Positions 631 to 20,625 of a stretch of 64,000 nucleotides of DNA are shown here, in pieces. The stretch is from Candidatus Woesearchaeota archaeon (GTDB lineage Archaea > Nanobdellota > Nanobdellia > Woesearchaeales > JACPBO01): the NCBI GenBank assembly GCA_016180285.1, contig JACPBO010000002.1:15570-79569 (forward strand), read 5' to 3'. Positions within the stretch are counted from its first letter, which is position 1. Every line of letters begins with the position of its first letter. The notes under the pieces are model-generated. The model did no database searches. It worked only from the letters and a program-made list of their open reading frames with translations, and was not told where the DNA came from. The translations under genes and the position numbers were made by a program.

Positions 631-738
631 CCTTTTCCCGAAAGCAGGCTGACTATTATCAGCAATGCAAGAAGAATTGCCAACGTAATCAGCAAGCCGC
701 CAAAAGCATTCCATTCAAGCGCTTTCTTGTTTTTCATC
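588..738 (-). CDS. Small membrane protein (49 aa), pilin-like N-terminus
   Basis: Minus-strand ATG at 738..736; MKNKKALEWNAFGGLLITLAILLALLIIVSLLSGKGWELWEGIKKIFGG; basic N-terminus + hydrophobic helix; stop overlaps start of downstream ORF. Below ORF-track cutoff. Confidence 0.25.
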
Positions 739-3660: not shown

Positions 3661-4188
3661 TCATCCCCCGCAAATATCCAATCTAAAATATAATAATCCG
3701 GATGCCGACTGCAGGGGCTGGCTTGCACTGTACCATGTTGTGCATTCGCCTTCAGTTATATTCAGCATTGTTTCTGTGCATTTTATTTCATTTGACATTC
3801 TGTTTGCTGTGCATGCTGTGAACTTAAATGCATTGCGTTTAAATGTTTGTTTTAAGGTTTCATCAAGGATGTCTGTGACAATAAAATTAACATGCTGGCA
3901 TGAATCTTCTGTTGCTGCTCCTCTCAAACAGCTTATATGCGCGCTTGATTTTGCGCAGTCTGCATAAAGCTCCCAGATCTCATAATTATTGCAGTCTGTT
4001 GTTGTTCCAAGCAATGTCGACAGCGTATTTGAAGCAAGCTCTGACTTTATGTATCTTTCCCTTGTTGTTGAAGCCGGCTTTGAAATGATATAAACCAGCG
4101 CAAAAAGCAGCACAAACGATATGAGTACAACTACAATGACCAGGCCAAGAACTTCAGTCTGTGATTTTTTATTCAGTCTGGCTGCCAT
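3661..4188 (-). CDS. Type IV pilin-like protein (class III signal peptide)
   Basis: N-term MAARLNKKSQTEVLGLVIVVVLISFVLLFALVYIISK: basic stretch, small residue, Q-x-E, then ~22 hydrophobic residues; cysteine-containing extracellular domain; last gene of a tight minus-strand array (overlaps upstream gene by 16 nt). Confidence 0.55.
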   Translation of the reverse strand: MAARLNKKSQTEVLGLVIVVVLISFVLLFALVYIISKPASTTRERYIKSELASNTLSTLLGTTTDCNNYEIWELYADCAKSSAHISCLRGAATEDSCQHVNFIVTDILDETLKQTFKRNAFKFTACTANRMSNEIKCTETMLNITEGECTTWYSASQPLQSASGLLYFRLDICGG

Positions 4189-4679
4189 GATTGTATTGTC
4201 AAGACTCCGAAATTTTTTCTGTCGTTTACAGCATCATAAATAATGATAGGGATATACGTGAGATAATATGTTGAGTAGTTGGCTGTTTTGTTGTAAAGAA
4301 CCCACTCGCCATCTGGCAGAGTAAGTGCTGGATAAATCTGGTTGATTTTTATTACGCTAAACCTGAAAAGGTCATAATAGTAGCTGTTATTCAAGTCTGG
4401 AGGATTAGGCGCTATTATTTTATTGAATGCCCCGATCTTATACAAATCAAAGCTTATGTAAGTGATATTTTTGTAAGTTTGCTGCAATTCAGGAAGGAAC
4501 TGTATCAGGTTTGCTATTTCAACTGACTGCTGCCTGAATGCCTCTTTTGTGCTTTCTTTTACTTCGCCAGTATAGAATTTCGCATAAAACACCATGCCGA
4601 TAAAGACCATTATGATAAATATGAAGATCACCATTATCGTTTCCCCCATTTTCATCAGCTGGGCTTTTGTTTTTTTCAT
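4173..4679 (-). CDS. Type IV pilin-like protein (class III signal peptide)
   Basis: N-term MKKTKAQLMKMGETIMVIFIFIIMVFIGMVFYAKF; 168 aa; abuts neighbours (4679/4681). Confidence 0.5.
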   Translation of the reverse strand: MKKTKAQLMKMGETIMVIFIFIIMVFIGMVFYAKFYTGEVKESTKEAFRQQSVEIANLIQFLPELQQTYKNITYISFDLYKIGAFNKIIAPNPPDLNNSYYYDLFRFSVIKINQIYPALTLPDGEWVLYNKTANYSTYYLTYIPIIIYDAVNDRKNFGVLTIQSWQPD

Positions 4680-4680
4680 T

Positions 4681-5757
4681 TTAGTAGATCAGAGGGCAGG
4701 AATTTGATTCTGCGTCTAAACTTTGTCGAATTAATGCAGTTGCATCGGCATTTATTGCATTCATTACACTTGTATCTGCTGAACCAAAACCGCCATCTAA
4801 TTTTGATATCATATCATCCAACGCGGTTGTTGTATAATATGAGCAATGTGTTGCATCTGCACCAATAAGCTCATTTCTGTTCTTGTACAGTTCAGCCATT
4901 ATCTTGTATTTCCTGAATGCTTTTTCCATGTTGCATTTGTAATTCTCGGCATCTTCAGCGAATACTGCTCCAATCAAAGAAGGCACTTCAAGAAAAGGAA
5001 GTGCATTACCCGGTTGTACTCGAAAATATTTTGAATTTGCATCATACTCATAAAATTTTACTTCGTCATCATTTATACTTACTGCAGTAATCTGATTTTT
5101 CATTTTATCAAAAAAAGAAGGTGCGTTTGTTATGTCGATCGTGCCTGTAGCAGCATTAAAAAATATAAATTTTATTTCATAATTATTTTTATCCTCCAGT
5201 TTATCGTCACTTTCAACTGTGAGCTTGCTGATATCAATTATCTCTTTTGATATTTTTTCAGGCAGCATATCATAAAACTCTTTTGCCTTGTCCTCTGTTG
5301 TTGCATCCTTGACTAAAATATACCTCACTTCCGGGCTCGTAATATACAGAAAATTCATAATAAAAAATGGCGATTTCCATTTCATTGTGTAAGTAACCAT
5401 CTCTCTCCCCTTTATGTAATCCGGCGAAAACAATACTGTTGTTGCCAATGACTCTGAAACTCCTGTTTTTTCTATGTTAAAAGAGGATGTTGCTTCTTCA
5501 CAGACAAAATTGATTCTTTTATTTGGGGTTCTTATCAGATTTTCCCTGCTTTCCTCTGTGCCGAGCTTTGAGTGCATTATTATTGTCCTCAAATTGTTCC
5601 TTACATCTTTCGCCAAGTTAGTTTCTGCAAGCCCTCTCTGCCAGTTGACAATTGCAATAAAGAATAGAAGTATAAGCGAGCCTGCAATTAGCACAAAGAT
5701 CCAGTTGAACTGAACCTCGATAACAGCTTTTCTGTTAAGATTCCGAGATTTCAACAT
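4681..5757 (-). CDS. Type IV pilin-like protein (class III signal peptide), 358 aa
   Basis: N-term MLKSRNLNRKAVIEVQFNWIFVLIAGSLILLFFIAIV; overlaps upstream gene by 23 nt. Confidence 0.55.
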   Translation of the reverse strand: MLKSRNLNRKAVIEVQFNWIFVLIAGSLILLFFIAIVNWQRGLAETNLAKDVRNNLRTIIMHSKLGTEESRENLIRTPNKRINFVCEEATSSFNIEKTGVSESLATTVLFSPDYIKGREMVTYTMKWKSPFFIMNFLYITSPEVRYILVKDATTEDKAKEFYDMLPEKISKEIIDISKLTVESDDKLEDKNNYEIKFIFFNAATGTIDITNAPSFFDKMKNQITAVSINDDEVKFYEYDANSKYFRVQPGNALPFLEVPSLIGAVFAEDAENYKCNMEKAFRKYKIMAELYKNRNELIGADATHCSYYTTTALDDMISKLDGGFGSADTSVMNAINADATALIRQSLDAESNSCPLIY

Positions 5758-6262
5758 AGTTGCCCCTGCCTGTTATTCTGAATGTGGCTCTGCCAGAAGA
5801 GGCATCTGCGCATAAAAACAAAGGGTTTGCAGAATCTGTAAGATCTGGGTCCGGAATATTGATTTTTCCCGCATAAAATGATTCAACTGATGCCTTGCTT
5901 TTAACCAGAAATATATTTTTCTTAACGCCTGAGCTGATGCTGTTTTTTATTATGGAGTTCAAGCTAGCAGAAGGTGATGAACTGCCTATCAGGCCATCAT
6001 CAACAAAGCATATCTGATTATAACCCGCAGGAAGCTTTAAATCCAGAAGCTCGGAACTGCCTGCCTCTGTTGTTATTGCGCTTATATCCCTCTCCAAGGA
6101 TGTCTTAAACCTTATAAAGTCCGCCTCTGTCGACTTCACCATTAAATCGCGTATCGCCTTGAATCCAAAAATCATAACTAACGCTATAACTAGCAATGCA
6201 AGTATGAAAACAAACACAAGATTTTGAACTTCTGCTTTTGCCATGTTTTTATTCCGCATCAA
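5735..6262 (-). CDS. Type IV pilin-like protein (class III signal peptide)
   Basis: N-term MMRNKNMAKAEVQNLVFVFILALLVIALVMIFGF; overlaps giant gene end (6249) by 14 nt, indicating co-transcription. Confidence 0.55.
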   Translation of the reverse strand: MMRNKNMAKAEVQNLVFVFILALLVIALVMIFGFKAIRDLMVKSTEADFIRFKTSLERDISAITTEAGSSELLDLKLPAGYNQICFVDDGLIGSSSPSASLNSIIKNSISSGVKKNIFLVKSKASVESFYAGKINIPDPDLTDSANPLFLCADASSGRATFRITGRGNYVEISES

Positions 6263-9200
6263 GATTTGACAGGATTTTCTTTGCTTGGGCTGCTGTTATT
6301 AATTTCTGGTCTGCAAGATTCAACAAAAGAGACCTTGCGTCTGATTTTGCGATTTTATCCAGCTTTATCAGCTGCGATAATATTTCTTCTGCAAGTCCTC
6401 TTGTGATTTTCTTGGTTTTAAGAAGATTGGAGAATGTTCTGCTGAGGTCTTGCTTGGCTATTTTCCTTGATTCTGCCAATGCAATCAATTTCTTTGCATA
6501 ATCCCCTTTCAAATTATTCTTTATAACCCCTTTCAATCTTTTAAATGCCTCATCCTTATCTGTTTCTTTCTTTAATGCAGCTGGTTTTTCTTTTGTTTTA
6601 ATCTCTTTTTTCGGTTTTTCAGCCAATATTCTTAATTTAGCAAAAATATCTCCCTTTACTTCAGGCTTTATTTTTGTTATTCCCGGATTTTCTTCTGCAA
6701 CGTCTATTTGTTCAACCTGCTTTTCTTCAGTTTTTGCTTCGGTTGGCTTTTCAGCTATTTTTTCAGGAGTATTTTCTTCTTCAAAGGCATTGAAAACCTT
6801 TTCCCTTTCTTTTTTCTCTGCTGCCCGCTTTATTTCCATGGATCGATGCGCAGGCCTTTGCATAAATCCCGGTTTTGCTTCCGGTCTTGACAGTGTTATT
6901 GGCTGCTGCATTCTTGGCGAATAGTGGGGCTTTTTCTTCTGCAGATAAGGCTTGTAGTAATATTCATAGAATGCATAGCCTCCTCCGCCGAGTGCTGCAA
7001 TTATCAGAACAGCCAATAATATCGGGAACCAATTGAAGCCCCCTGATTTTTCAGGATTTGGTTCAGTTGTTGAGCCGGTTGTTTTTTCAGTGCACTGGCT
7101 ATTAAGGCAGTAGTTTGTTGCGCAATCTCTTGAAATTAAGCATGTTTTTCCAACATGGCATTTGGGGCAGTTTGATCCGCCGCAGTCCTTGTCAGTTTCA
7201 TCATTGTTTTTTACATTGTCGCTGCATGTCTGGTTTATGCATTTTTTATTCGGGCTGCAATAATTTGTTTTGCAGTCACTGTTGGACAGGCAATTTTTAT
7301 CCGGGCTGCATGGGTCGCACCCTCCGCCGCAGTCTATGTCTGTTTCATCTCCGCTTAATTTAGCATCCTTACAGCTGTCGATGTTTTTTTTGCATATTCC
7401 TGACTTGCACTTTAAATTAGTTGCGCAATCGTTGTCTTGTATGCATTTCTTGCCTTCTGGGCAGTCTGAGCAGCTTCCGCCGCAGTCTATGTCTGTTTCA
7501 TCTCCATTCCTGATATCATCGTTGCATGAAGGATTGGCGCATTTCTTAGTTGAATTTGGGCAATAGCCGCTCAGGCAGTCTGAATTTATCAGGCAATTCT
7601 TGCCGCTAATGCAACCCGCGCATTGTTTGCCGCAGTCCACATCTGTTTCTGTGTCGCTTTCAAATAAAAGATCTATGCAATGGCCTGGTAGCTTTGATAT
7701 ATCGACTGTCACGCCATCGCTGGACATAACGTCGCTTGTCCAGTTCGCATAATCAACTGCCTTTACTTTAAATTTGTATGTTCTTAGGTTTGTTAAGTTC
7801 AGCTTTGTTCCATTGCTCTGCATCCAGTTTGGCTCATTGTCTTTCGTTAACCAATACCATTGGTCATCTATTGAGCTTGTTGTCCAATTCACAACCACAT
7901 TCAAATAGCTGTCTTCCAGTAAATATTGATAGTACCATATCCCCGATCCTGCATCAGTGCCGTGCCATTTTGCCTGCAGTCTGTCAGAGAAATATGAGTA
8001 TTGCGTATTATTAGCTAAATTGCTGGAATCATCAACATAGCTCATATTCGGCTTCTTTGTGTCAACTAAGAAAGTGATTGTTACTGGATCAGACCATAAT
8101 CCTGCAGCGATGCACTTCGCATAATATGTGTTTGAGCCTTCCTGCTGACCGGGGGTGTGCTTGTGGCGGTAGCCTGTTGTTTCTGAGAATAAATAGATCA
8201 TTGAAGAGCTGCTAATTCCCCAAAAACATTCTGCATTTTTATTAGTGCCTATATCTATCTTTGTTTGGTTCATATTGCTGTATGCAAGTGTATAAACTGC
8301 TATTGTGATTGGAGCGCTAAGGTTGACTGCAAAGTTTATGGCGGATGTTGCTGATGCCCAACCGGCGAGATTCTCGCATGCAACGTAATATGTATAGCTT
8401 CTCTCTTCCAGCGGAAGGTAAAATATCTGGCGGTGTATTGTATTGAATTGCTTTTGTGCATAGCTTGAGAAGTTCCCTTCCATCAGGGCATAGTTCTGTG
8501 TTGTATTGCTGTATTTGCAGAGTGTTGCCTCGTTTGTCTGAACATTCAATGTGACATTTGGAGGGAATTCCACCACGGGCGATGGGTTTGCATATGCTGT
8601 TATTATTTGCGGAGGCGATGAATCAACTCTTATGATGAAGGTCACATTCACCAGGCCTCTGATGGTATCATTGCATCTTACGTAAAAGTTATGGTTGTTT
8701 TCGTCTGCTAAGTAGATGTTGTATAATTGATGCGCTGTTGAATTTGAACTATCAAAGCCGGCCATGTTGCTGAATGACTGAACCGATATATCAAGGGTTT
8801 GCCTGCATTGCACAGCCTTGTCTGTTAGCAGCGTTATATTGAACCTTTGTGTCGATGAAACATTGTAAGGTGGCTGTATCATTGTTATCACTAATGGAAT
8901 TGCATCGATTTCGAACAAGGTGCGCGAGGATACTGTGTTGCCAGCATAATCGTGTGCTGTTATTACCAGCGTTTTACTGCCATCTAAAAATTGCTGAGAC
9001 TTTGTAAAAAGCTTGTTAGATGATGATGAAAATGTTGAAATGTTTAATGACGCCCCATTGACAGTTACGTCATCCAAGAAAACTTTTTCACTGAAGTTGA
9101 ATATTATTGCCATTGTTGCTTCTAAAGAATAATTGCCATCTTTCGGGCTCTGCAAAGTCACTGTTGGCGGAGTTGTATCAACAACAAATGCTTTTGCAAA

Positions 9201-11498: not shown

Positions 11499-11500
11499 TT

Positions 11501-12724: not shown

Positions 12725-13439
12725 TTTTATTTTTTATATTTTCAATGATTTCATCAACCAAATGCTCTGGCCAGCCTAGTTTTATAAGGCCTTTTTCAAT
12801 GTGCTCTGCAGTATAGCCTTTTCTGATTGCATCTTCTATGTAATTTTTCAGCTCTTCGTTTTTACCGAGCTGCTTTTTCTCTTCCAGCTTTTTGAAAAAC
12901 TTGTTTCTCATTCTTTCAATGAAAAATATGATCAATGCTATCGCCATTATTACAGCGGCTATTATGATCGAATAAAGGCCTATTCCTGCAAATTGCTTTT
13001 CTTTTGAAGGGCAGTCTTGAGGGCATGATAATGGACTTTCATCCTGTCCGCATATGTTGTTGCCGCACTTCTTTGCATACCTGCCAACATCAATATCAAG
13101 CGCCCTTATGCCGGTTTGATCAAATATTTCAATTCTCTTTCCATTCTCAAAGTATGGTGTTCTAACAGTTGTTTTATTGCCGAACATTGAAAACTTGAAT
13201 GAATCCAGTATTTGGTTGTCAAAAGATGTTATTTCCAGCCTATAGCCATTTTCAGGCTCTACCCTTGCAGGAGCCTTGCCGCCTATTACATAGACGTGAT
13301 CCAGAACAAGCGCATTGCCTTTCAGCTCAAGCGATATTTCATAATGCTTGACTTGGCTCTGAGGCATTGCAGCTTGGACTAGGAATGTGTTTAATAGAAA
13401 AAATACAAAAACCGAGTAAAGTGTTTTATTTCTGGTCAT
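12711..13439 (-). CDS. Type I membrane protein with Cys-rich stalk (CGNNICGQDESPLSCPQDC), TM and conserved cytoplasmic tail motif
   Basis: Signal peptide MTRNKTLYSVFVFFLLNTFLVQAAMP; stalk motif immediately before TM IGLYSIIIAAVIMAIALIIFFI; tail ends NYIEDAIRKGYTAEHIEKGLIKLGWPEHLVDEIIENI, matching the motif in ORF 19719..20381 N-terminus and the 2364-aa protein C-terminus. Confidence 0.6.
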   Translation of the reverse strand: MTRNKTLYSVFVFFLLNTFLVQAAMPQSQVKHYEISLELKGNALVLDHVYVIGGKAPARVEPENGYRLEITSFDNQILDSFKFSMFGNKTTVRTPYFENGKRIEIFDQTGIRALDIDVGRYAKKCGNNICGQDESPLSCPQDCPSKEKQFAGIGLYSIIIAAVIMAIALIIFFIERMRNKFFKKLEEKKQLGKNEELKNYIEDAIRKGYTAEHIEKGLIKLGWPEHLVDEIIENIKNKNETK

Positions 13440-13487
13440 TTTTTTATTTCATGGTTTGTTTTGCAAATATTATTAATGCATGAGCAA

Positions 13488-14066
13488 TTATTTACAATAA
13501 ACAATTGCTCTTCTTTCAAAGGTCCAGCCATTAATGTCAGGACAACACCCGCAATTTCCACTATAGCGCCAAACAGTGTATAGATTAGCAGGGTCATCCT
13601 TGGCTAGCCCATCTGGGCTAGGAGAACCATAATACCACGTGTCATCATCACAAAACCTAGGTCCTACGTAATACCAGTCCTTATAAAAATACCCGCCACG
13701 GCCTCCACCTAAGTGCGTATAATGGGCTACTGCATCTACTGCGCCATCATAAGTTCTTCCAACCACGTCACATAATCTTGCATAATTGCCATTAATTATC
13801 ACATCCGCCTCCCATTCAACTGATGTTGGTAGAGTGCCTGAGAAAAAAAGCGGTATTCGGCCGCCTCCCAGCTCTTTAGCATCTATCGCCTTTTGTAATG
13901 TTTTCTGCATGCCGCTGATATTAACCATCACTTCCCCTGAGCTGTGTCCGAATGTTTCCGGTGATTCTGTATTAAACGCTATGACTAGCCCAAGGCCAAC
14001 TACAGCCAAAACAAAAGCCATTAAAATATACAAATGTTTCTTTGCTATGTTCAGTTTTATTTCCAT
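13488..14066 (-). CDS. Membrane-anchored hypothetical protein with Gly- and Cys-rich ectodomain
   Basis: N-term MEIKLNIAKKHLYILMAFVLAVVGLGLVIAF (signal anchor); C-term ...YSGNCGCCPDINGW; no recognised domain. Confidence 0.45.
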   Translation of the reverse strand: MEIKLNIAKKHLYILMAFVLAVVGLGLVIAFNTESPETFGHSSGEVMVNISGMQKTLQKAIDAKELGGGRIPLFFSGTLPTSVEWEADVIINGNYARLCDVVGRTYDGAVDAVAHYTHLGGGRGGYFYKDWYYVGPRFCDDDTWYYGSPSPDGLAKDDPANLYTVWRYSGNCGCCPDINGWTFERRAIVYCK

Positions 14067-14111
14067 TTTAGCTCACCCTTTTTAGTTTTTAGTTTATCTT
14101 ATGTTTATTCA

Positions 14112-15077
14112 TTATTTTAATTTTGATTTAATTTCTTGCTCACTTGGAAGCTTGATTTTATATTCGGCAACAAAAATTTCCTTTTTTAAACCACCCAATG
14201 CATAATGCACTGTTTCATCATCTTTAGTTTTGCAGATTATTAAGCCAATCGGCAAACGCTGGCCATTCTTCAATTTATTCTCCTTATACCAGTTAAGATA
14301 AGAGTACATCTGGCTCACATGAGAATGCTTAAACTCCTCAGTTTTTATTTCTACCAAAATATAGCACAATAATCCGGCATGGAACAACTCTAAATCAATT
14401 TTATCATAATTGCCTGCGATCAGTATTGGAACCTCTCTTCTGCCAATAAAGAAATCTGAGCCTAGTTCTTGGAGTAATTTTTCAAATTTATTCAATAGGG
14501 CATCTTTAAACTCCGTTTCTTTAGAATTTTCATCTAAGCTTAAAAAATTAAAATGATAGACCTCTTTGAAAATTTGTTCGGGTTCAATGGTTTTTAGAGG
14601 AAGCCTCTTTTTAATGGCTAATGTGCCTTTTTGGGAGGCCTTTTGGTATAGCTTCTTTTTGATTTCCTGATGAACAATTCTGACACTCCAGCCATTTTGA
14701 ATTATTTGTTGCCCATAAAAATCTCTTTCCTCTTTTTTTGCAAGCTTAATTAATTCAACAATGTGGGACCAGCTTAATTGTGCAGACACTGTCTGCACAA
14801 TTGGATATGTTCTGTAGAATTGGACTATCTCAAACATTAATCTCCTAGAAAAGCCTAAATCGTGCGCTAAGTTATCTAAGAGGTATTGCCCATAATCTGC
14901 CCTTTCTTTATGCTGCAATTCTTCCCTTACTATTCTCTCTCCTATCTGCCAGTATGTTTGCACCCTTACATTATCTACTGCCTTATAGGCCTGTGCTTTG
15001 GCCTTGTCAAGCAAAAATCGTATATCTTTAAGTACCTGATCATATTCTTCAATTTTTGATAAATCGGTTTTTTTCAT
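14112..15077 (-). CDS. DUF1016/YhcG-like PD-(D/E)xK nuclease family protein
   Basis: N-terminal ...KAKAQAYKAVDNVRVQTYWQIGERIV... matches the conserved DUF1016 N-domain (YWxIGxxI); C-terminal ...ELFHAGLLCYILVEIKTEEFKHSHVSQMYSYLNWY contains D...E-x-K nuclease-like core. Predicted cytoplasmic, embedded in the surface-protein array. Confidence 0.6.
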   Translation of the reverse strand: MKKTDLSKIEEYDQVLKDIRFLLDKAKAQAYKAVDNVRVQTYWQIGERIVREELQHKERADYGQYLLDNLAHDLGFSRRLMFEIVQFYRTYPIVQTVSAQLSWSHIVELIKLAKKEERDFYGQQIIQNGWSVRIVHQEIKKKLYQKASQKGTLAIKKRLPLKTIEPEQIFKEVYHFNFLSLDENSKETEFKDALLNKFEKLLQELGSDFFIGRREVPILIAGNYDKIDLELFHAGLLCYILVEIKTEEFKHSHVSQMYSYLNWYKENKLKNGQRLPIGLIICKTKDDETVHYALGGLKKEIFVAEYKIKLPSEQEIKSKLK

Positions 15078-15084
15078 GTTTTAT

Positions 15085-15387
15085 TTATTGCTTGGTTTCG
15101 CTTAATTGCTCATTTGTCCTTAAACAAGCTACATCTATGAAATTAAATGTCTGGTTTCCAGCAAACAAGCTTACGGGCTGGCAGTTTCTGGATTGCTGAA
15201 TTATTGAAATAATGCTGTTCTGCAACCCTATATTATAGCCGCTTTGCTGTGCAGCAAAAATCTGTCTGTTATACCACGAATTCCATAACAATCCTGCAAT
15301 TATAACTATTAAGATTGCTATAATGATGTAAAGGATTTTTGTTTTTTCCATCTTTTTCGCCCCTTTGGTTTCAATTTTGTTTTTCAT
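15085..15387 (-). CDS. Small single-TM protein (100 aa)
   Basis: MKNKIETKGAKKMEKTKILYIIIAILIVIIAGLLWNSWY; basic N-terminus plus TM. Confidence 0.4.
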   Translation of the reverse strand: MKNKIETKGAKKMEKTKILYIIIAILIVIIAGLLWNSWYNRQIFAAQQSGYNIGLQNSIISIIQQSRNCQPVSLFAGNQTFNFIDVACLRTNEQLSETKQ

Positions 15388-15388
15388 T

Positions 15389-16678
15389 TTATTTGCAGCA
15401 TATCTTCAGGCTGTAATAATCGCATTTTGCAACATGAGTGTTGTAAACAGGCGATGCTGTTGCCTGCGCTAAGGAGGCGATGCATGTCTCGTCAGCGTTG
15501 CATGCGCCGTCCCTATTCGCGCATTGTGTTGTGCTTGGCGAAACGCAGATATTTGTTGAATATCCTGCTATTGTTGTTGAAGGCTCTGCTGCATGCGCAT
15601 TTGAAGCTGCATTAAGCTTCAATATGGTTGTTCCGCAGCTGTTGCTTGTGAACTTGCTGCTTGGGCAGCAGACTTTGTATGCTGCATCGCATGACTGCGA
15701 TGCATGTGAATTAGTTTCTGCATTCATTGAAAATATGCAAGTCTGCTCTGCTGTGCATGATGCTGAAACTGCGCATTCTGCTGCACCTTCTTCTATTGAA
15801 AAGGGAGTAGATGCTGTATCTGTCAAAACAGGCGTGTTTGAAGTTGCTGTTATTTCTGCTGTATGATCGCCTGAAGGTGCATTTGCCGAATCCCACTCCG
15901 TCATATATTCGTTTCTGCCTTGGCTTGTAAGCACAAGGTCATCTGCCAATCCTGGGCTGTGTATGTCTGCAGCCACGTTCACGCCGGATTGTGTATTATC
16001 AACAACTGTTGCTGTAATTTCGAACATTGTTCCTGATGATGATGTGATTGGAGTAATGCTGATATCTGAAATTTCAAGCTGGTTATTTGAAGGAGTTATT
16101 GTGATTATAACTTTATCTGGCTGGCTGTGAAGCTCGCCATCATAGACTGTTAATTGAAACTCATAAGTTCCTTGTTGCGTTGCTGTGAATGATGGCTTTT
16201 GAGCAGTTGTTGATGATAAGGTTACAGATGTGCCTGAGATTTGCGCCCAACCATAAGTTAGTTGAGCTCCTTCTGGATCAGAACTGCCAGAGCCATCTAA
16301 TTGTGTTATTGTGCTAACAGCAGATGTTCTATCTAGCCCGGCATTTGCTATTGGAGGGGCATTTGCTGTAGAAACTACTACTGTAACAACATCTATCGCG
16401 GTTTTTCCACTACTATCAGTTATAGTCAAAACTGAGTTGTAAGTTCCTGCTGAAGCATATATGTGAGTTGGATTTTGCTCATTGCTCTTTGTTCCATCGC
16501 CAAAGTCCCAGGAATAAGAAGCCACTGGGTTCGCCGATATTGCAAATCCCTTGAAGTCAACTGTGAATGGCTCTTGTCCATTAACTGTTTTTGTCGGGAT
16601 TGTTATTTTGATTAAAAGCAGCAGCATGATTACTGCAAAAACAATTTTCAGGCTGTTTATTATCTTTTTATTTTCCAT
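15389..16678 (-). CDS. Secreted PKD-domain protein with Ig-like repeats and Cys-rich C-terminus
   Basis: N-terminal hydrophobic signal; canonical PKD signature FAISANPVASYSWDFGDGTKSNEQNPTHIYASAGTYNSVLTITDSSG; further beta-rich repeats; C-terminal Cys cluster (CAVSASCTAEQTC...KVCCPSS...KICCK). Confidence 0.8.
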   Translation of the reverse strand: MENKKIINSLKIVFAVIMLLLLIKITIPTKTVNGQEPFTVDFKGFAISANPVASYSWDFGDGTKSNEQNPTHIYASAGTYNSVLTITDSSGKTAIDVVTVVVSTANAPPIANAGLDRTSAVSTITQLDGSGSSDPEGAQLTYGWAQISGTSVTLSSTTAQKPSFTATQQGTYEFQLTVYDGELHSQPDKVIITITPSNNQLEISDISITPITSSSGTMFEITATVVDNTQSGVNVAADIHSPGLADDLVLTSQGRNEYMTEWDSANAPSGDHTAEITATSNTPVLTDTASTPFSIEEGAAECAVSASCTAEQTCIFSMNAETNSHASQSCDAAYKVCCPSSKFTSNSCGTTILKLNAASNAHAAEPSTTIAGYSTNICVSPSTTQCANRDGACNADETCIASLAQATASPVYNTHVAKCDYYSLKICCK

Positions 16679-16679
16679 T

Positions 16680-19600
16680 TCAACCAGTATCCGCTATTGC
16701 GTATAGCATGTCAATTGATCCGCCTGTTCCGGCAATCCTTAATTTTGAAGTGAAGTCCCGCCATAGGTTGAATACTGCATCAGTTACTTTGTCTGCAAAT
16801 GGCTTTGCTGCAATGTAAAATTTGTTATTATCTTTATAGCATATGTACTTATTTGTTTTGTTAACATAATCATCGCATATATTTGTGCCAAATCCGGTGT
16901 AATTTATCACAAGGTATTTTGTTGAAACTCCGGTAGCATCGAGGATGTTTTCTTCTATTAATGCGAAAATTGACTTGTCAGTTGTTTTTAGCATATACAA
17001 ATGGCTGAAATCTTTTGTTTGGTTGATAAATGAGTAGTCAAATGATACCAGATTGCCTCCAAAGTCAAATGACGGCAATATAATGCTATTAATGAGTTGA
17101 TGCAGCGCCAGTATTGGGTTTCCTAATAAGATAAGCGATAATGTTTTAAGATATGCCTGAGTAAGTGTTGTCGGCATTGAAAACGCCGCATTGCTGTAAA
17201 TTAATGTTTTTGATGCATTATTGTACCATATTTTATTGCTGGCGTCGCATGAATGGAATTGGCCGTCATTTGTGGCTGTACAGCCTGATAAACTCAGCAC
17301 ATCAAGGAATTTATAATTTGGAGCATTCAGTTCCTGATTCACTGTTAAGCCAAATAATATGTTATTGTTGTAATTCAAAATACAAACCTGATTTGCGCAT
17401 GGCTGGTTTACCTGGCTGCCAAAAGTGCATTTATTTGAAATATAATCCTGCGCATTCTTTGTTCCAGATATTATGTAATTGTAATAATTCAGGACATTTG
17501 CGTAATTATCGCAGAATAAAGCATATTCGGAGCTTCCCGCTAAATTAATCATTGTTAATGCCAGCTGCTTTGTTCTTGTTGTCCAGTTTCCATTTTCGCA
17601 GTAATGATCCAAGACATATTGTGTATTGTTTATGCACTGCGGCTGTGTGGATGTGAAATAAGCGTCTGGGTTGTTGTTGCTTGCATAACTCCCAGATGGG
17701 TTTACAAGGCATTGCTGCTTCTCGGGGCAGTATCCTGCTTCATTGTTCCATGTCTTTTTCTGATAATCATCCTTCCATTCTCCGCTTAAGCATCGTTTGT
17801 TTTCATATGCCTGAGCAAGAGGATTTCCTGCTTGGTCATCAACACATGATGTTCCGTTCCAGCACTGTGAATCCTGGCAGCAACCTGCTGAACTGTATGA
17901 TGTTGCAAGCGCGGATAGTCCTGAAGGCGATGCTGAAGTGTGATTTTTCATTTGGCCATTATTGTCCAGCCATTCGCTTGAGTAATCGCAGTAAAATCTT
18001 CCCCTGTTTGTGCAGTAACCGTCATTAATTATTAAGTTGCCGGTATGCTGCGTATCTTGCTTTGTTTGCAAACCAGCAGGAATATTGCAGCCATAGAACT
18101 GGCCGTTGAGTGTCATTATGTTCTCGCCGCCTTTTAGAGAGACATCATCAAAGTATGCTGTCTGGCCTGATGCTGCTGAAAGGAATAGCTTAATGTAATA
18201 GGTTTGTTGTGTCGGTGTATAGGTTGAATTGTACAACGCCCATCCTGTGGCTTGCGTGACAGAATTTTGCAGAGCATCGCTTACAAAATTTTTAGAGGCA
18301 TCATATTGCTTTATTTTTGCGTTTATATTGCCGCTGTAGTAATATATCGATCTATATTCCACGTCTCCACTTACAGGTATGAAGTCGCTTTCTATTGATG
18401 CCCCGCTTATTAGTTTGGCTGCTGTTGAGCGAGTTGCGCCGCCATTGAAGGCTTCGATTTCTCCTGTTCTTAACCAATATTTCAGGTTATCAGCATCTAC
18501 CCACTCTGTGAGGCCGCTGTTTTTAAACAACTCGTTTGAGGACAGAATCGTATTGTTTGTTATCTCTCTTTCATCCCAGCAATTTGTGTTCGGGTTAGGA
18601 TTCATCACATCGTTATAATCTTCATGGGGATCTTCTCCGCAGCATAAGCTTCCCGTGTAGCTGAATCCTGCTGATTCGCAGCTTCCAGAAGAGTCATCAA
18701 GATTATTTGACCATATTTTTTTATCTCCTGTATCTATGCAATAATAAGTTGTTTGATCTATCCTTACAGAATCTCCTGTTTTGTTTCTTACTCCTTCAGA
18801 AGTGCCTCTGCAGATTGGTGCTCCGGTTCCATCAGAGTATGCTTGATCATTTCCTTTGCATTCATAAATGTTATAAGCGCCAGAAGCATTGTTAGAGCAT
18901 ATAAACCCATGCGACTGTGTGGTTGTAGATGGTGTTTTGGATACATCAATGTTAGTAAACCCAGGGCAAGCTGTCCAAACTCCATCTTTTGAAACATACA
19001 TTGTATTTGAAACGTTAATAACATCGCCCCTGCAGTCATCTGCCTTGAGCCATTGCCATGTGCTGTTTGCGCATATTATGCTGTTGTCTGATGTTCTATA
19101 ACCCATATCGCCAGAATCATCGCCGCAGCATGCTGATGCTGTGCTGGACCAAGCTCTGAGTGATGGGTTAGCAGCTTCTCCGCCAATTGGACAATTTAAA
19201 CAAGAGCCTTCATTCAAATCGGGATTGTCTGTTGCATCATCGCCGCAGCATTGATTTTTTGTTGTGTCCCAATAAAAGCCCTGAGATGCGCAACTGGCTG
19301 AGCAATTACCCGCCTCTTGCGGGCATTCTGACCAATCACTCCATGTATAGTTTCCTAGGCAATTTCTAGTTTGATTCCCGCAGGAAGTTGATGGGCATGC
19401 TTTGGTATCTATTACATCTGGCGTGGTGCACCCTATATTAGCGCACGTTATTCTACATGCCTCTTCGCCATAATTTGCAGCTGGACCTTCAAAAGGATGA
19501 CAACCATTGGGGTCTATTTCATCGCAGCCATGATTTGATCCAGAACCAATATCTTCACAGGATAACCTTGTATCGTCTGCATCATTGCAAAATACATCAG

Positions 19601-19706
19601 AGCCAGAATCTATCGTGTAAGTCACGTACTCCGCAGAAACAAACTTATTAATGATTAATAAAAACATTACGATTATCACCACCCTTATTATTGTTTTATT
19701 TTTCAT
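16680..19706 (-). CDS. Large (1008 aa) cysteine-rich secreted protein
   Basis: Signal peptide MKNKTIIRVVIIVMFLLIINKFVSAEY; >60 Cys; many N-x-S/T sequons; no C-terminal TM. Confidence 0.7.
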   Translation of the reverse strand: MKNKTIIRVVIIVMFLLIINKFVSAEYVTYTIDSGSDVFCNDADDTRLSCEDIGSGSNHGCDEIDPNGCHPFEGPAANYGEEACRITCANIGCTTPDVIDTKACPSTSCGNQTRNCLGNYTWSDWSECPQEAGNCSASCASQGFYWDTTKNQCCGDDATDNPDLNEGSCLNCPIGGEAANPSLRAWSSTASACCGDDSGDMGYRTSDNSIICANSTWQWLKADDCRGDVINVSNTMYVSKDGVWTACPGFTNIDVSKTPSTTTQSHGFICSNNASGAYNIYECKGNDQAYSDGTGAPICRGTSEGVRNKTGDSVRIDQTTYYCIDTGDKKIWSNNLDDSSGSCESAGFSYTGSLCCGEDPHEDYNDVMNPNPNTNCWDEREITNNTILSSNELFKNSGLTEWVDADNLKYWLRTGEIEAFNGGATRSTAAKLISGASIESDFIPVSGDVEYRSIYYYSGNINAKIKQYDASKNFVSDALQNSVTQATGWALYNSTYTPTQQTYYIKLFLSAASGQTAYFDDVSLKGGENIMTLNGQFYGCNIPAGLQTKQDTQHTGNLIINDGYCTNRGRFYCDYSSEWLDNNGQMKNHTSASPSGLSALATSYSSAGCCQDSQCWNGTSCVDDQAGNPLAQAYENKRCLSGEWKDDYQKKTWNNEAGYCPEKQQCLVNPSGSYASNNNPDAYFTSTQPQCINNTQYVLDHYCENGNWTTRTKQLALTMINLAGSSEYALFCDNYANVLNYYNYIISGTKNAQDYISNKCTFGSQVNQPCANQVCILNYNNNILFGLTVNQELNAPNYKFLDVLSLSGCTATNDGQFHSCDASNKIWYNNASKTLIYSNAAFSMPTTLTQAYLKTLSLILLGNPILALHQLINSIILPSFDFGGNLVSFDYSFINQTKDFSHLYMLKTTDKSIFALIEENILDATGVSTKYLVINYTGFGTNICDDYVNKTNKYICYKDNNKFYIAAKPFADKVTDAVFNLWRDFTSKLRIAGTGGSIDMLYAIADTG

Positions 19707-19718
19707 TTCATTGGTCCA

Positions 19719-20381
19719 CTAATAATTAAAATTTTTCAACAAACACGCGTCTCCTTTTTTAATCAAAAAAATATCAGCACGATCAATCAAGTTGTCTGGC
19801 TTTGCTTCTTTTCTGACTGCATTTTCATAATTCTTGCCTAATTTTGTAAAATCGACTGCCCCATTGCAATACATGTTGATTTTTGCATTAAATTCATCTT
19901 TGGCAATAACAGTTACATTGATTATTCTAAAACTTATGTTGCCTTCGCAAACCGTTCTTAAAATGCCGAATGCTAACTCTTTAAAATCTTTGATCTTATT
20001 AGAATCATCGGGGTTAAAATAGATCTCTCTGAAGCCATCATCGCTCCAAACATCGGCAATATTCTCCAATTTGTTTATGCAGTCTGAAAAATCCTTTTCA
20101 TCAGCCATAATTGAGCTTTCGGGTTTTTTTTGTATGTTTTGGCTGCTGATTATTAAAATAATGGCAAGCAGGATTGTTGTCACAGCAATCGCGCCTACGA
20201 AAGGGATTTTTTTAATGTTTGAAGGTCTTCCTGCTATTTTACCAGATCCTGTTTTATTTAGTGCTTCTTTAACATCTTCCATCTTGTACCCTGTTTTCAA
20301 TAAAGCAGTTTTAATTTGGTCCAAAGAGAATCCTCTGGTCAGCTGCTTTTTTATGTAATTCGCAAGTTTGTCATCAGCCAT
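19719..20381 (-). CDS. Type II membrane protein with N-terminal cytoplasmic conserved motif
   Basis: N-term ANYIKKQLTRGFSLDQIKTALLKTGYKMEDVKEAL (same ~35-aa motif as tails of 12711..13439 and 48231..55325 products), then TM IPFVGAIAVTTILLAIILIISS and ~130-aa ectodomain with Cys. Confidence 0.55.
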   Translation of the reverse strand: MADDKLANYIKKQLTRGFSLDQIKTALLKTGYKMEDVKEALNKTGSGKIAGRPSNIKKIPFVGAIAVTTILLAIILIISSQNIQKKPESSIMADEKDFSDCINKLENIADVWSDDGFREIYFNPDDSNKIKDFKELAFGILRTVCEGNISFRIINVTVIAKDEFNAKINMYCNGAVDFTKLGKNYENAVRKEAKPDNLIDRADIFLIKKGDACLLKNFNY

Positions 20382-20382
20382 T

Positions 20383-20529
20383 TTATACTTTTTTGCCCTT
20401 TTCCTCTTTCTTCAGCTTTTCTTCTATTGCTTCATGGATGAATTGGATAAGCGTCTTGTTCTGTAGAACAGAGTTTAGCTTGGCCTTTTTGTGCAGCTCG
20501 CCATCAATCTCTATATTTATCCTTGTCAT
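20383..20529 (-). CDS. Ribbon-helix-helix (CopG/Arc/MetJ-like) small DNA-binding protein, 48 aa
   Basis: Hand translation: MTRINIEIDGELHKKAKLNSVLQNKTLIQFIHEAIEEKLKKEEKGKKV; MxRINIxIDxELHxKAK is a typical RHH beta-strand/helix-A start. Stop lies 1 nt upstream of the ATG of 19719..20381. Absent from ORF track (short). Confidence 0.5.
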   Translation of the reverse strand: MTRINIEIDGELHKKAKLNSVLQNKTLIQFIHEAIEEKLKKEEKGKKV

Positions 20530-20625
20530 TTGAAATAACTTATTTAACTTAGTTTACTTATTTTAAATAATTAAGTTACTGATAAACGATAATCTGGAAG
20601 TTCTTGTATTTAAATATTGCGGAAA

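What the first reader, a model, noticed from the sequence alone, without database searches (positions are those of the whole stretch)
3661..20529. 16.7-kb unidirectional array of pilin-like, giant-adhesin and PKD/Cys-rich surface genes headed by an RHH regulator: candidate undescribed cell-surface attachment system
Thirteen consecutive minus-strand genes from 20381 down to 3661 are packed with overlaps or 1-3-nt gaps (12724/12711, 11501/11498, 6262/6249, 5757/5735, 4188/4173), consistent with co-transcription. Products: five proteins with class-III-signal-peptide-like N-termini (KKSQTEV/KKSQITV/RKAVIEV/AKAEVQN followed by ~20 hydrophobic residues), a 1749-aa Cys-rich N-glycosylated TM adhesin, a PKD protein, a 1008-aa Cys-rich secreted protein, membrane proteins sharing a cytoplasmic motif, and a DUF1016 nuclease. 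A 48-aa RHH gene sits just upstream. No pilus ATPase (FlaI/PilB) or platform protein (FlaJ/PilC) is in the window, so this is not a canonical type IV pilus locus. The pairing of minor-pilin-like proteins with a self-anchored giant adhesin resembles an adhesive-filament or host-attachment apparatus, as expected for episymbiotic small-genome archaea.
Basis: partly seen in the sequence, partly recalled or inferred. Interest (0 to 1): 0.78.

Follow-up and report, generated by a model that had tools for sequence, protein, structure and literature searches.

The report
Woesearchaeal pilin and adhesin gene cluster
This is the structural half (minor pilin-like proteins plus two big surface proteins) of a type IV pilus-like apparatus that is conserved across Woesearchaeota, tiny groundwater archaea thought to live attached to other cells, and none of its proteins belongs to a described family.

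Summary
The 13-gene "system" is composite, though, and it does not end at 3661.

The core is a seven-gene cassette, collinear in about 35 species-level Woesearchaeales genomes:
- a secreted Cys-rich protein X (16680-19706);
- a 400-aa pilin-like protein (11501-12724);
- a giant type-I membrane protein (6249-11498);
- four more pilin-like proteins (3661-6262).

All five pilin-like families keep a short basic leader, [K/R]-[G/A/S], then Gln (Phe in one family) and about 20 hydrophobic residues. X and the giant protein have ordinary Sec signals instead.

In relatives, 1-3 small (76-94 aa) pilin genes follow the cassette, and in three species an A24 prepilin-peptidase homologue sits next to it. 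In this genome the array continues past the window start and includes a 98-aa small pilin.

Of the remaining genes, four (PKD, 100, 192 and 242 aa) are a genus-specific insertion, and the DUF1016 nuclease is found only in this genome.

No ATPase or platform gene lies within about 15 kb on one side and 45 kb on the other. The Methanococcus Epd pilus genes are likewise spread over separate loci. Best reading: an Epd-like type IV pilus structural and adhesin locus, a new variant of a known kind.

The parts
20530..20625 (-). AT-rich 96-nt intergenic region upstream of the RHH gene. It is a candidate archaeal promoter, with TATA-like ATATTTAAATAC and TTATTTAAAATAAG.
   Evidence: Read from the sequence. 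No promoter model for archaea was available, so this is inference only.
20383..20529 (-). 48-aa RHH-like putative regulator (MTRINIEIDGELHKK...).
   Evidence: Sub-threshold Pfam hits to RHH families (HicB, 56B_RHH; ParD and VapB for the L003 orthologue). Orthologues sit directly upstream of, or overlap, the X gene in L003, L022, L030, L037 and L045.
19719..20381 (-). 220-aa membrane protein with an N-terminal cytoplasmic G[YF][ST]..I...L...G[WY] motif and one TM segment. Found only at genus level.
   Evidence: TM at 61-79. Motif. The only homologue is in the 75%-identity relative L045.
16680..19706 (-). Protein X: a 1008-aa secreted Cys-rich protein (50 Cys) with a Sec-type signal. It is the first gene of the conserved 7-gene cassette.
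   Evidence: Orthologues (747-2620 aa) lie immediately upstream of the 400-aa gene in almost all loci. Sec-type N-termini, a poly-Pro/Gly linker and no class-III motif in 0 of 26 orthologues. The core has no Pfam domain; single members carry He_PIG, Big_9, LamG, pentaxin, cadherin-like or PKD domains.
15389..16678 (-). 429-aa secreted PKD-domain protein with a Cys-rich C-terminus. First gene of the genus-specific insertion.
   Evidence: PKD_4 4e-27 and K319L-like_PKD 9e-21. Present in L045 and L046 only.
15085..15387 (-). 100-aa single-TM protein, part of the genus-specific insertion.
   Evidence: TM at 18-36. Homologues only in L045 and L046.
14112..15077 (-). DUF1016/YhcG PDDEXK nuclease. 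It is a passenger insertion and probably not part of the system.
   Evidence: YhcG_C 5e-39 and DUF1016_N 5e-35. Absent from the same position in both close relatives L045 and L046 and from all other loci.
13488..14066 (-). 192-aa membrane-anchored protein. This is the variable member of the genus-specific insertion.
   Evidence: Partial homologues of 144 and 259 aa in L045 and L046. The N-terminus has no [GAS] at the -1 position.
12711..13439 (-). 242-aa type-I membrane protein with a cytoplasmic G[YF][ST]..I...L...G[WY] motif. Last gene of the genus-specific insertion; it overlaps the next gene by 14 nt.
   Evidence: Signal plus TM at 156-174. Motif. 76-86% identical in L045 and L046.
11501..12724 (-). 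407-aa pilin-like protein (KKS|QITVFMIIG...), the most conserved cassette member.
6249..11498 (-). 1749-aa giant type-I membrane protein. Order of features: Sec signal, GCC..NP motif, Cys-rich N-terminal third, Ig-like middle, four DETD.DCGG.C modules, TM, and a 240-aa K/E-rich cytoplasmic tail.
   Evidence: Orthologues of 1500-2727 aa are always in this position. A C-terminal TM plus a 110-240 aa tail is present in nearly all complete orthologues. About 75 invariant columns; TSP3_bac in 20/22 and Big_13/Big_3_3 in 11/22.
5735..6262 (-). 175-aa pilin-like protein (MAKA|EVQNLVFVF...). The start may be the ATG at 6244, giving 169 aa.
   Evidence: Orthologues read K[SAG]|Q(L/I)Y(G/S)QIFIY, with -1 G/A/S in 25/25. 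Two invariant Cys. A gene caller chose 169 aa.
4681..5757 (-). 358-aa pilin-like protein (NRKA|VIEVQFNWIFVL...).
   Evidence: Orthologues read KK[AG]|FE(I/V)QFNW in 27/28. AF2 pLDDT 90.9 with one continuous N-terminal helix 8-65, then a beta domain and a C-terminal helical bundle. No PDB analogue was found. Four invariant Cys.
4173..4679 (-). 168-aa pilin-like protein (KA|QLMKMGETIMVIF...).
   Evidence: Orthologues read K[SAG]|QIQ(I/M)GETIAVLF, with -1 A/S/G in 22/22 and +1 Gln in 22/22.
3661..4188 (-). 175-aa pilin-like protein (NKKS|QTEVLGLVIVVV...), the last gene of the conserved cassette.
   Evidence: Orthologues read K[SA]|QMEILGLAIVVVL, with +1 Gln in 17/17. Six invariant Cys.
1634..1753 (-). 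39-aa protein (MKSKKS|MTQELIVIILAV...), the first gene of the second block of pilin-like genes.
   Evidence: Called gene in L001, L047 and L049. Sequence.
769..1644 (-). 291-aa protein with the N-terminus MRNKKA|IGKTSDIWNAVLVSLILG.
   Evidence: Homologue of the 271-aa gene that follows the small pilins in L003, and of genes in the same place in other loci.
588..737 (-). 49-aa protein (MKNKKA|LEWNAFGGLLITLAILL...).
1..630 (-). 5' part of a 334-aa protein (..INKKG|DFQFSPIIRAIIVILVV...) that runs off the window start. The array continues outside the window with a 98-aa small pilin and seven more such genes.

Best explanation
The region is the structural and adhesin gene cluster of a type IV pilus-like (type IV filament) apparatus of a Woesearchaeales (DPANN) archaeon. 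It most resembles the Epd pilus of Methanococcus.

**Proposed mechanism**
1. The five pilin-like proteins (407, 175, 358, 168 and 175 aa) are inserted into the membrane by their N-terminal hydrophobic helix.
2. An A24 prepilin peptidase cuts them after the [K/R]-[G/A/S] motif.
3. An ATPase and platform encoded elsewhere in the genome assemble them as minor pilins, forming an initiation or tip complex.
4. Small pilins of about 80-95 aa build the shaft. In relatives their genes follow the cassette; in this genome one lies just outside the window.
5. The conserved secreted Cys-rich protein X, whose relatives carry interchangeable lectin/Ig-type domains, is the most likely pilus-associated adhesin.
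6. The giant, strongly conserved type-I membrane protein with a cytoplasmic tail is an envelope-anchored (S-layer-like or stalk) partner.
7. The 48-aa RHH-like protein probably regulates the operon.

**Shown:** conserved synteny, conserved cleavage-type motifs, adjacency of small pilins and of the peptidase, and predicted topologies.

**Inferred:** processing, assembly into a filament, the tip location of the five proteins, the adhesin role of X, and the host-attachment function.
For: **Conserved gene order**
- The seven-gene order X, 400 aa, giant, ~160, ~340, ~158, ~158 is collinear in every one of 39 GTDB species-level loci as far as each contig reaches. It is complete in 16. The same order is seen in independent ENA and NCBI contigs.

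**Class-III-type N-termini**
- All five pilin-like families keep short leaders (mostly 3-9 aa) ending in K/R-[G/A/S], followed by Gln (Phe in the 358 family) and about 20 hydrophobic residues.
- The motif is absent from all 62 orthologues of X and the giant, which have Sec-type signals.
- It is also absent from the other secreted proteins of the window.
- The families share only this N-terminal segment in profile-profile comparison, as pilins do.
- Each family has conserved paired Cys, consistent with extracellular domains.
- The AF2 model of the 358-aa protein has one continuous N-terminal helix, residues 8-65.

**Linked pilus genes**
- In 15 of 18 loci with a complete 3' end, 1-3 small pilin genes (K[GAS]|Q[SG]ISINTIIIAAIALAVLVVLF, 76-94 aa) follow within 70-450 nt on the same strand.
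- The window genome has a 98-aa homologue about 0.45 kb beyond the window start, within a run of further NKK[GAS]-type genes.
- A Peptidase_A24/Arc_PepC homologue with both Asp motifs is the divergent neighbour of the cassette in L003, L035 and L036.

**Precedent**
- M. maripaludis pilins have 5-13 aa leaders, a +1 Gln and a 74-aa major pilin, and the ATPase/platform genes lie at a separate locus (PMC3875500).
- Published archaeal type IV pilus locus models include at least 5 minor pilins and two large proteins, one with a C-terminal TM segment and one secreted, all Cys-rich (PMC4858521).
Against: - No assembly ATPase, platform or peptidase gene lies in the window or in the flanks that could be read. 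None appears in the ±10 kb flanks of about 40 related loci (a crude motif scan; precomputed Pfam). Their presence in these genomes was not shown.
- No pilin model of Pfam or NCBIfam matches any of the proteins.
- The strict FlaFind pattern fails on the five window proteins, because -1 is Ser or +2 to +4 are not all hydrophobic.
- The 407-aa model has a flexible break after the TM helix, unlike a classical pilin alpha-1 helix.
- The giant protein carries its own membrane anchor, so it cannot be a pilus-tip protein.
Confidence: 0.6

Rival explanations
1. The five class-III proteins form a short pseudopilus or membrane-proximal scaffold, like the T2SS pseudopilus or the Sulfolobus bindosome. This scaffold positions or exports X and organises the giant envelope protein. 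It is not the tip of a long adhesive pilus.
For: - The five proteins are large (158-407 aa) and mutually unrelated outside the N-terminus.
- The 407-aa model has a flexible linker after the TM helix.
- The giant partner is membrane-anchored.
- Class-III signal peptides on non-filament surface proteins are established for Sulfolobus sugar-binding proteins (preprint 10.64898/2026.04.22.720090).
Against: - Small, highly conserved pilin genes typical of filament shafts directly follow the cassette in 15 of 18 loci.
- Pili connecting ultra-small groundwater cells to hosts have been reported by microscopy, as cited in PMC9938205.
Confidence: 0.15
2. The cassette is chiefly a cell-envelope module. 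The giant, conserved, sequon-rich type-I membrane protein is the S-layer-like wall protein of Woesearchaeales, and X and the N-terminally anchored proteins are its accessory or anchoring partners. The link to pilins is only that a filament must pass through the wall.
For: - The giant protein is conserved along its whole length: about 75 invariant columns, 33 sequons in the window copy, a Thr/Ser-rich stalk, and a C-terminal TM in nearly all orthologues.
- Makarova et al. interpret a large protein with a C-terminal TM segment in type IV pilus loci as S-layer-like (PMC4858521).
Against: - A 110-240 aa cytoplasmic tail and more than 80 Cys are unusual for S-layer proteins (my own knowledge).
- The hypothesis does not explain the conserved peptidase-type cleavage motif in five families.
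- It also does not explain the adjacent A24 peptidase genes.
Confidence: 0.12
3. The hydrophobic N-termini are uncleaved signal anchors. The genes are simply co-located surface proteins (adhesins, PKD proteins) of an episymbiont surface island, with no filament involved.
For: - No pilin HMM, FlaFind or fold match.
- The window copy contains lineage-specific insertions, which shows that the locus tolerates unrelated surface genes.
Against: - A plain signal anchor does not require an invariant small residue followed by Gln at a fixed distance before the helix. That pattern is conserved over 5 families and about 130 orthologues.
- Small pilins and A24 peptidase genes are physically linked to the cassette.
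Confidence: 0.08
4. One reading: a self-contained, previously undescribed attachment system that works without type IV pilus assembly machinery.
For: - No ATPase or platform gene lies within about 45 kb on one side and 15 kb on the other.
- All core families are unannotated.
Against: - Unlinked ATPase/platform loci are normal for archaeal pili (PMC3875500).
- No known mechanism extracts and polymerises class-III proteins without such a motor (established knowledge of the type IV filament superfamily).
Confidence: 0.05

Closest known systems
Epd type IV-like pilus gene cluster of Methanococcus maripaludis (archaeal TFF 'system 1': eppA, epdA-C and other genes; PMC3875500, PMC4858521, preprint 10.64898/2026.04.22.720090)
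   Same: - Several minor pilin-like proteins of very different sizes lie in one operon with large secreted, adhesin-like proteins.
- Leaders are short and followed by a +1 Gln.
- The major pilin is very small (74 aa there, 76-98 aa here).
- In some genomes the dedicated prepilin peptidase gene is in or next to the cluster.
- The ATPase and platform genes are at another locus.
- System 1 has been reported in DPANN.
   Different: - No sequence or profile similarity to DUF361/Class_IIIsignal, DUF2341 or any Epd family was detected.
- The -1 residue is often Ser or Ala instead of Gly.
- There is no conserved +5 Glu.
- A giant type-I membrane protein with a cytoplasmic tail is a fixed member of the cassette.
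- Membership of system 1 could not be tested, because the ATPase was not found.
Bacterial minor-pilin/adhesin modules: fimU-pilVWXY1E of Pseudomonas type IVa pili and GspH-I-J-K of type II secretion
   Same: - Four to five pilin-like proteins of unequal size are encoded together with a large non-pilin adhesin.
- They are thought to prime assembly and sit at the filament tip.
   Different: - The domain of life and the folds differ.
- Neither a PilY1 beta-propeller nor a GspK-like fold was found.
- The resemblance is functional analogy only.
Thermoproteales clade 4G type IV pilus loci (Makarova et al. 2016, PMC4858521)
   Same: - Two large proteins: one with a C-terminal TM segment (interpreted as S-layer-like) and one secreted (adhesin or minor pilin).
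- Several small minor pilins.
- Nearly all components have conserved cysteines.
   Different: - Those loci contain the ATPase, TadC and a MinD-like ATPase.
- No homology to the families here was tested or detected.
Sulfolobus bindosome (class-III signal peptide sugar-binding proteins assembled by BasEF)
   Same: Large functional proteins carry pilin-type N-termini and may be displayed on a type IV filament-derived scaffold.
   Different: - There are no solute-binding domains or ABC transporter genes here.
- Small shaft-type pilins are linked to this cassette.

Membership tests
Archaeal type IV pilin-like proteins (class III signal peptide substrates of A24 prepilin peptidases) | Short basic N-terminal leader ending in K/R followed by a small residue (G/A, sometimes S) at -1. 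| tested here: met
   In all five families -1 is G/A/S in essentially all orthologues and -2 is mostly K/R. Leaders are mostly 3-9 aa.
Archaeal type IV pilin-like proteins (class III signal peptide substrates of A24 prepilin peptidases) | A hydrophobic alpha-helical segment of about 20 residues directly after the cleavage site. | tested here: met
   Hydropathy segments at residues 13-37. AF2 N-terminal helices 9-41 and 8-65.
Archaeal type IV pilin-like proteins (class III signal peptide substrates of A24 prepilin peptidases) | Match to the FlaFind pattern [KRDE][GA][ALIFQMVED][ILMVTAS]x3. | tested here: inconclusive
   None of the five window proteins matches. Orthologues with G/A at -1, such as KG|QVTL and RG|QLTL, do match. 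The pattern was re-implemented from memory and is not the original program.
Archaeal type IV pilin-like proteins (class III signal peptide substrates of A24 prepilin peptidases) | Match to curated pilin or class-III models (Pfam Class_IIIsignal/DUF361, Pilin_N; NCBIfam archaeal pilin models). | tested here: not met
   No such hit, even at E<=10 on the N-terminal 50 residues. The only trace is UpsA at E=0.04 for a small pilin.
Archaeal type IV pilin-like proteins (class III signal peptide substrates of A24 prepilin peptidases) | Actual cleavage by a prepilin peptidase. | not testable with these tools
   There is only contextual support: an A24/Arc_PepC homologue with both Asp motifs lies next to the cassette in 3 species.
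Complete archaeal type IV filament (TFF) system | FlaI/PilB/VirB11-family assembly ATPase in the locus. | tested here: not met
   No T2SSE-type domain in the window, in the extension to the contig end, or in six related loci with precomputed Pfam. No Walker-type motif in about 1700 flanking ORFs. The rest of the genome could not be searched.
Complete archaeal type IV filament (TFF) system | FlaJ/TadC-family polytopic platform protein in the locus. | tested here: not met
   Same searches as for the ATPase.
Complete archaeal type IV filament (TFF) system | Filament-forming (major) pilin. | tested here: met
   Small pilin genes with K[GAS]|Q[SG]ISINTIII... follow the cassette in 15 of 18 loci. 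A 98-aa homologue lies in the same genome just outside the window. That it forms a filament is inferred.
PilY1 / DUF2341-type pilus tip adhesins | PilY1 beta-propeller or DUF2341 domain in the large secreted protein. | tested here: not met
   No such Pfam hit in X (26 orthologues) or in the giant protein (22 orthologues). No PDB sequence relative.
Ribbon-helix-helix (CopG/Arc/MetJ) transcription regulators | Significant match to an RHH family model. | tested here: inconclusive
   Only sub-threshold hits: HicB 17.9-18.8 bits, ParD 21.7 bits, 56B_RHH 17.6 bits, VapB. The size and the N-terminal strand-like MTRINIE.D.ELHKK motif fit an RHH protein.
Archaeal S-layer glycoproteins | Large secreted protein with many N-glycosylation sequons and a C-terminal membrane anchor, forming the wall lattice. 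| tested here: inconclusive
   The sequons (33) and the C-terminal TM are present. Lattice formation is not testable. The long cytoplasmic tail and 86 Cys are atypical.

The most novel reading that the evidence does not exclude
The seven-gene cassette, possibly with the further NKK[GAS] genes beside it, builds a DPANN-specific host-attachment organelle. Five unrelated minor pilins would form a tip or initiation complex that carries the modular Cys-rich adhesin X. The giant conserved type-I membrane protein would couple the structure, or the contact site, to the cytoplasm through its long tail.

All of these proteins would represent new folds and families. One member alone has about 10^4 cluster representatives in metagenomes and no Pfam entry. 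On this reading the cassette would be the main genetic determinant of Woesearchaeal episymbiosis.
Probability: 0.2. Interest if true: 0.8.

Novelty: new variant of a known kind. Interest (0 to 1): 0.55.

Why it matters
Woesearchaeales are among the most abundant DPANN archaea in groundwater and sediments. None is in pure culture, and how they attach to partner cells is unknown.

This analysis defines a concrete, strongly conserved gene set for them:
- five pilin-like families;
- a modular secreted Cys-rich protein;
- a giant membrane protein with a cytoplasmic tail;
- small shaft pilins;
- an occasional adjacent prepilin peptidase.

All of these are currently annotated as hypothetical. The set gives markers for comparative genomics, targets for metatranscriptomics, metaproteomics and cryo-ET, and two high-confidence structure models that have no solved analogue. 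It also shows that a missing ATPase gene in a locus should not be read as evidence against a type IV pilus.

Tried and rejected
**Searches that found nothing**
- Pfam and NCBIfam on all cassette proteins, and Pfam on the N-terminal 50-mers, gave no pilin or class-III model.
- The strict FlaFind-type regex gave no match in the window proteins.
- PDB profile searches with the five pilin-like families and X returned only noise.
- Foldseek against PDB for the 358-aa model gave nothing at E<1e-3.
- The AFDB50 library was unavailable.
- The first attempt at a genome scan with a 44-sequence alignment failed for lack of a conserved stretch. It worked with a 16-sequence alignment.
- Small pilin homologues were searched for in the window. 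There are none; the copy lies just outside.
- The ATPase search was negative. It used Pfam on all large window ORFs, a Walker-A/B regex on about 1700 flanking ORFs, and extension of the contig past the array.
- tRNA and Rfam scans of the window were empty.
- Literature searches found no description of this cassette.

**Ideas considered and rejected**
- That the DUF1016 nuclease is part of the system: it is absent in close relatives.
- That the 100-aa and 192-aa proteins are pilins: they have no [GAS] at -1.
- That the 856-aa protein beyond the window is an active M23 peptidase: there are only weak, sub-threshold LytM/SpoIIQ-like hits.

Full report
**Source and setting.** The window is archaeal. 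It encodes TBP, an intein-containing MCM, PolD DP1/DP2, Cdc6, PAN and RNase P p30. The 407-aa protein of the finding is identical to HYU07_00220 of a Candidatus Woesearchaeota MAG, and the same DNA occurs in Logan assemblies of groundwater runs.

**Check of the observation.** Fourteen minus-strand ORFs run from 20529 down to 3661. Their junctions are +1, +12, +1, +1, +7, +45, +48, -14, +2, -14, -23, +1 and -16 nt.
- Pfam confirms PKD domains in the 429-aa protein, DUF1016_N plus the YhcG PDDEXK domain in the 321-aa protein, and faint Ig-like domains in the 1749-aa protein.
- The 48-aa protein gives only sub-threshold RHH-type hits.
- The 1749-aa protein has a Sec-type signal, 86 Cys, 33 sequons, four DETD.DCGG.C modules, a TM segment near residue 1500 and a 240-aa Lys/Glu-rich tail.
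- Five proteins have a basic leader plus a hydrophobic stretch. None matches a strict FlaFind-type pattern, and no Pfam or NCBIfam pilin model matches them.
- The rest of the window has no secretion-type ATPase or polytopic platform gene.

**What is conserved.** The 407-aa protein has 131 homologues in the word-indexed search, nearly all labelled Woesearchaeota. A profile of the family finds 9748 cluster representatives at E<=1e-3 and 1164 at E<=1e-30 in the 1.84-billion-protein library. None has a Pfam domain.

A scan of one genome per GTDB species returned 39 loci. BLAST of the window proteins against ORFs of these loci shows one invariant order:
- X, the homologue of 16680-19706 (747-2620 aa);
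- a protein of about 400 aa;
- a giant protein of 1500-2727 aa;
- four proteins of about 160, 340, 158 and 158 aa.

All seven are present in order in 16 loci. The other loci are cut by contig ends but are collinear as far as they go. The exceptions are L043, which lacks X, and L010 and L026, whose 3' parts deviate; L010 has transposase-like ORFs there. The cassette often lies just after the RNase P p30 gene. Contigs from ENA and NCBI with precomputed annotation show the same order.

**What is not conserved.** In the window, five genes (PKD, 100 aa, DUF1016 nuclease, 192 aa, 242 aa) lie between X and the 400-aa gene.
- Two relatives at 70-75% identity (L045, L046) share the PKD, 100-aa, variable and 243-aa genes but lack the nuclease.
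- No other locus has any of these five genes.
- The nuclease is therefore a genome-specific passenger, and the other four are a genus-level insertion of surface or membrane proteins.
- The 220-aa gene is also genus-level.
- The 48-aa RHH-like gene recurs immediately upstream of X, often overlapping it, in L003, L022, L030, L037 and L045.

**Are the five N-termini class III signals?**

| Family (window protein) | Motif in orthologues | Counts |
|---|---|---|
| 407 aa | K/R-[S/A/G]\|Q-I/V-T | +1 Gln in 39/39 |
| 175 aa (5735-6262) | K[SAG]\|Q(L/I)Y | -1 G/A/S in 25/25 |
| 358 aa | KK[AG]\|FE(I/V)QFNW | 27/28 |
| 168 aa | K[SAG]\|QIQ.GET | -1 A/S/G and +1 Gln in 22/22 |
| 175 aa (3661-4188) | K[SA]\|QMEILGL | +1 Gln in 17/17 |

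- Leaders are mostly 3-9 residues.
- None of 62 orthologues of X and the giant protein has the motif. They have Sec-type signals followed by conserved mature N-termini such as GCC.NPGAG.
- Other secreted proteins of the window also lack the motif.
- The families resemble one another only in this segment, and each has conserved Cys pairs in the rest of the protein.
- This is the pattern of substrates of archaeal prepilin peptidases. In M. maripaludis, pilins have 5-13-residue leaders ending in Gly and a conserved +1 Gln thought to be needed by EppA (PMC3875500).
- The frequent Ser at -1 explains why the strict pattern fails.

**Linked pilus genes.**
- In 15 of 18 loci with a complete cassette end, one to three genes of 76-94 aa follow within 70-450 nt on the same strand. 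Their N-termini are nearly identical (K[GAS]|Q[SG]ISINTIIIAAIALAVLVVLF) and their C-termini are Cys-rich, which makes them the obvious shaft pilin candidates.
- The window has none. There, an inverted esterase/FGE-sulfatase gene (1854-3605) follows the cassette.
- Reading the same genome beyond the window start (L047, L049) shows that the array resumes. It runs 39 aa (window 1634-1753), 291 aa (769-1644), 49 aa (588-737) and 334 aa (from about 630, off the window).
- Outside the window it continues with a 98-aa small pilin homologous to those of 14 other loci, then proteins of 128, 166, 254, 320, 165, 206 and 856 aa. Almost all begin with NKK[GAS] plus a hydrophobic stretch.
- An RPA gene, several small ORFs and a NERD-domain gene follow, with no ATPase or platform gene up to the contig end.
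- In L003, L035 and L036 the gene divergently adjacent to the cassette is a Peptidase_A24/Arc_PepC homologue. In L003 it is fused to a PMT_2 glycosyltransferase. Both aspartate motifs are conserved (D...GKIRN and AGDGKL).

**Structures.**
- AF2 models built with family alignments are confident: 407 aa at pLDDT 93.7 and 358 aa at pLDDT 90.9.
- The 358-aa model has one continuous N-terminal helix (residues 8-65), followed by a beta domain and a helical bundle.
- The 407-aa model has a TM helix, a flexible break and a large globular domain that ends in an Ig/cadherin-like module with a conserved DPDED motif.
- Profile searches of PDB sequences were empty.
- Pilin status therefore rests on the N-termini and on genomic context, not on the globular folds.

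**The two large proteins.**
- X has a conserved Cys-rich C-terminal region of about 480 residues and no Pfam domain. Individual orthologues carry He_PIG, Big_9, Laminin_G_3, pentaxin, cadherin-like or PKD domains, as expected for a modular adhesin.
- The giant protein is conserved along its whole length, with about 75 invariant columns. It carries TSP3 repeats in 20/22 and Ig-like domains in 11/22 orthologues.
- Nearly all complete giant orthologues have a C-terminal TM segment with a 110-240-residue cytoplasmic tail.
- The giant protein is therefore a fixed envelope-anchored component and not a tip protein.

**Interpretation.** The best-supported reading is the structural and adhesin half of a type IV pilus-like apparatus:
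- five minor pilin-like proteins processed by an A24 peptidase;
- small shaft pilins;
- a secreted modular adhesin (X);
- a giant membrane-anchored partner;
- an RHH-like regulator.

The motor would be encoded elsewhere. This matches published models of archaeal type IV pilus loci, which have at least five minor pilins and two large proteins, one with a C-terminal TM segment and one secreted, all Cys-rich (PMC4858521). It also matches the dispersed organisation of the Methanococcus Epd pilus genes. A recent classification places 'system 1' type IV filaments in DPANN and notes large adhesin-like proteins in such loci (10.64898/2026.04.22.720090). Pili linking ultra-small groundwater cells to hosts have been reported, as cited in PMC9938205.

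Processing, assembly, tip location and host attachment are inferences. The main gap is that no ATPase, platform or (for this genome) peptidase gene could be shown, because only parts of the genome are accessible here.

**Rivals.**
- A short pseudopilus or bindosome-like scaffold.
- An envelope module in which the giant protein is S-layer-like.
- Uncleaved signal anchors in a mere surface-protein island.

The conserved cleavage-type motif, the linked small pilins and the adjacent peptidase genes argue against the last two.

**Novelty and score.** The kind of locus is known. Its components here belong to no described family and have no solved structural analogue. They are very widespread in metagenomes and define a cassette not described in the literature that was searched. 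I rate it a new variant of a known kind, with interest 0.55.

Noticed in passing
L049:5140-13185 (same genome, about 0.45-10.4 kb beyond the window start) and window 1-1753: A second block of at least 11 genes whose products begin with NKK[GAS] plus a hydrophobic stretch. It includes a 98-aa small pilin and is interrupted by an ankyrin-repeat gene on the opposite strand. With the five pilin-like genes of the finding, the genome has at least 16 such genes in about 31 kb.
   Followed up: partly
L049:10615-13185: The last gene of that block encodes an 856-aa protein with a pilin-type N-terminus (NKKS|IMFFNMFLVF). It gives weak, sub-threshold hits to Peptidase_M23 (20.8 bits), fn3, and the LytM-like domain of SpoIIQ (E=0.009). 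A pilin-tethered cell-wall-binding or lytic domain would be notable, but it is not established.
   Followed up: partly
L003:4592-7255: In one relative the prepilin-peptidase homologue (Peptidase_A24 + Arc_PepC) is fused to a PMT_2 glycosyltransferase domain in an 887-aa protein. This suggests coupled processing and glycosylation of pilins.
   Followed up: partly
window 1854-3605 (+): A secreted 583-aa fusion of an alpha/beta-hydrolase (DUF676/PGAP1-like esterase) and an FGE-sulfatase domain. It is inserted in inverted orientation between the two blocks of pilin-like genes, at the place where relatives have the small pilin genes.
   Followed up: partly
window 14112-15077 (-): The DUF1016/YhcG PDDEXK nuclease gene sits inside the operon-like array but is absent from the same site in relatives at 70-75% identity. 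It is a recent insertion with no obvious mobile-element partner genes.
   Followed up: yes
window 26213-29512 (+): The MCM helicase gene is interrupted by an intein with a LAGLIDADG homing-endonuclease domain. Relatives have intein-free MCM proteins of about 675 aa.
   Followed up: no
window 42145-43242 (-): A free-standing 365-aa ORF with a weak LAGLIDADG_3 hit, in the lowest-GC stretch of the window (0.33).
   Followed up: no
window 43775-55325 (+): Two adjacent giant proteins (1472 and 2364 aa) with PQQ/beta-propeller, NHL and Laminin_G_3 domains. The second has near its C-terminus a sequence (LTIDQLKSALRQKGWNKDAIEAAL) that resembles the cytoplasmic motif of the 220- and 242-aa proteins.
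   Followed up: no
window 31805-38489: PolD large and small subunits and Cdc6/Orc1 are clustered. The 240-nt gap after Cdc6 (38251-38488) may contain the replication origin.
   Followed up: no
L006-L009, L015, L019, L029, L031-L033, L037, L038, L040-L042: Many genome records that carry the cassette are titled 'uncultured Methanosarcinales archaeon'. Their neighbouring genes (RNase P p30, TBP, MCM) and the cassette itself match the Woesearchaeota loci, so the titles look like mislabels.
   Followed up: no
L010:16881-21158: In one species the cassette breaks off after the fourth gene. A 581-aa secreted protein and transposase/integrase-like ORFs follow, which points to disruption by a mobile element or to a misassembly.
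   Followed up: no
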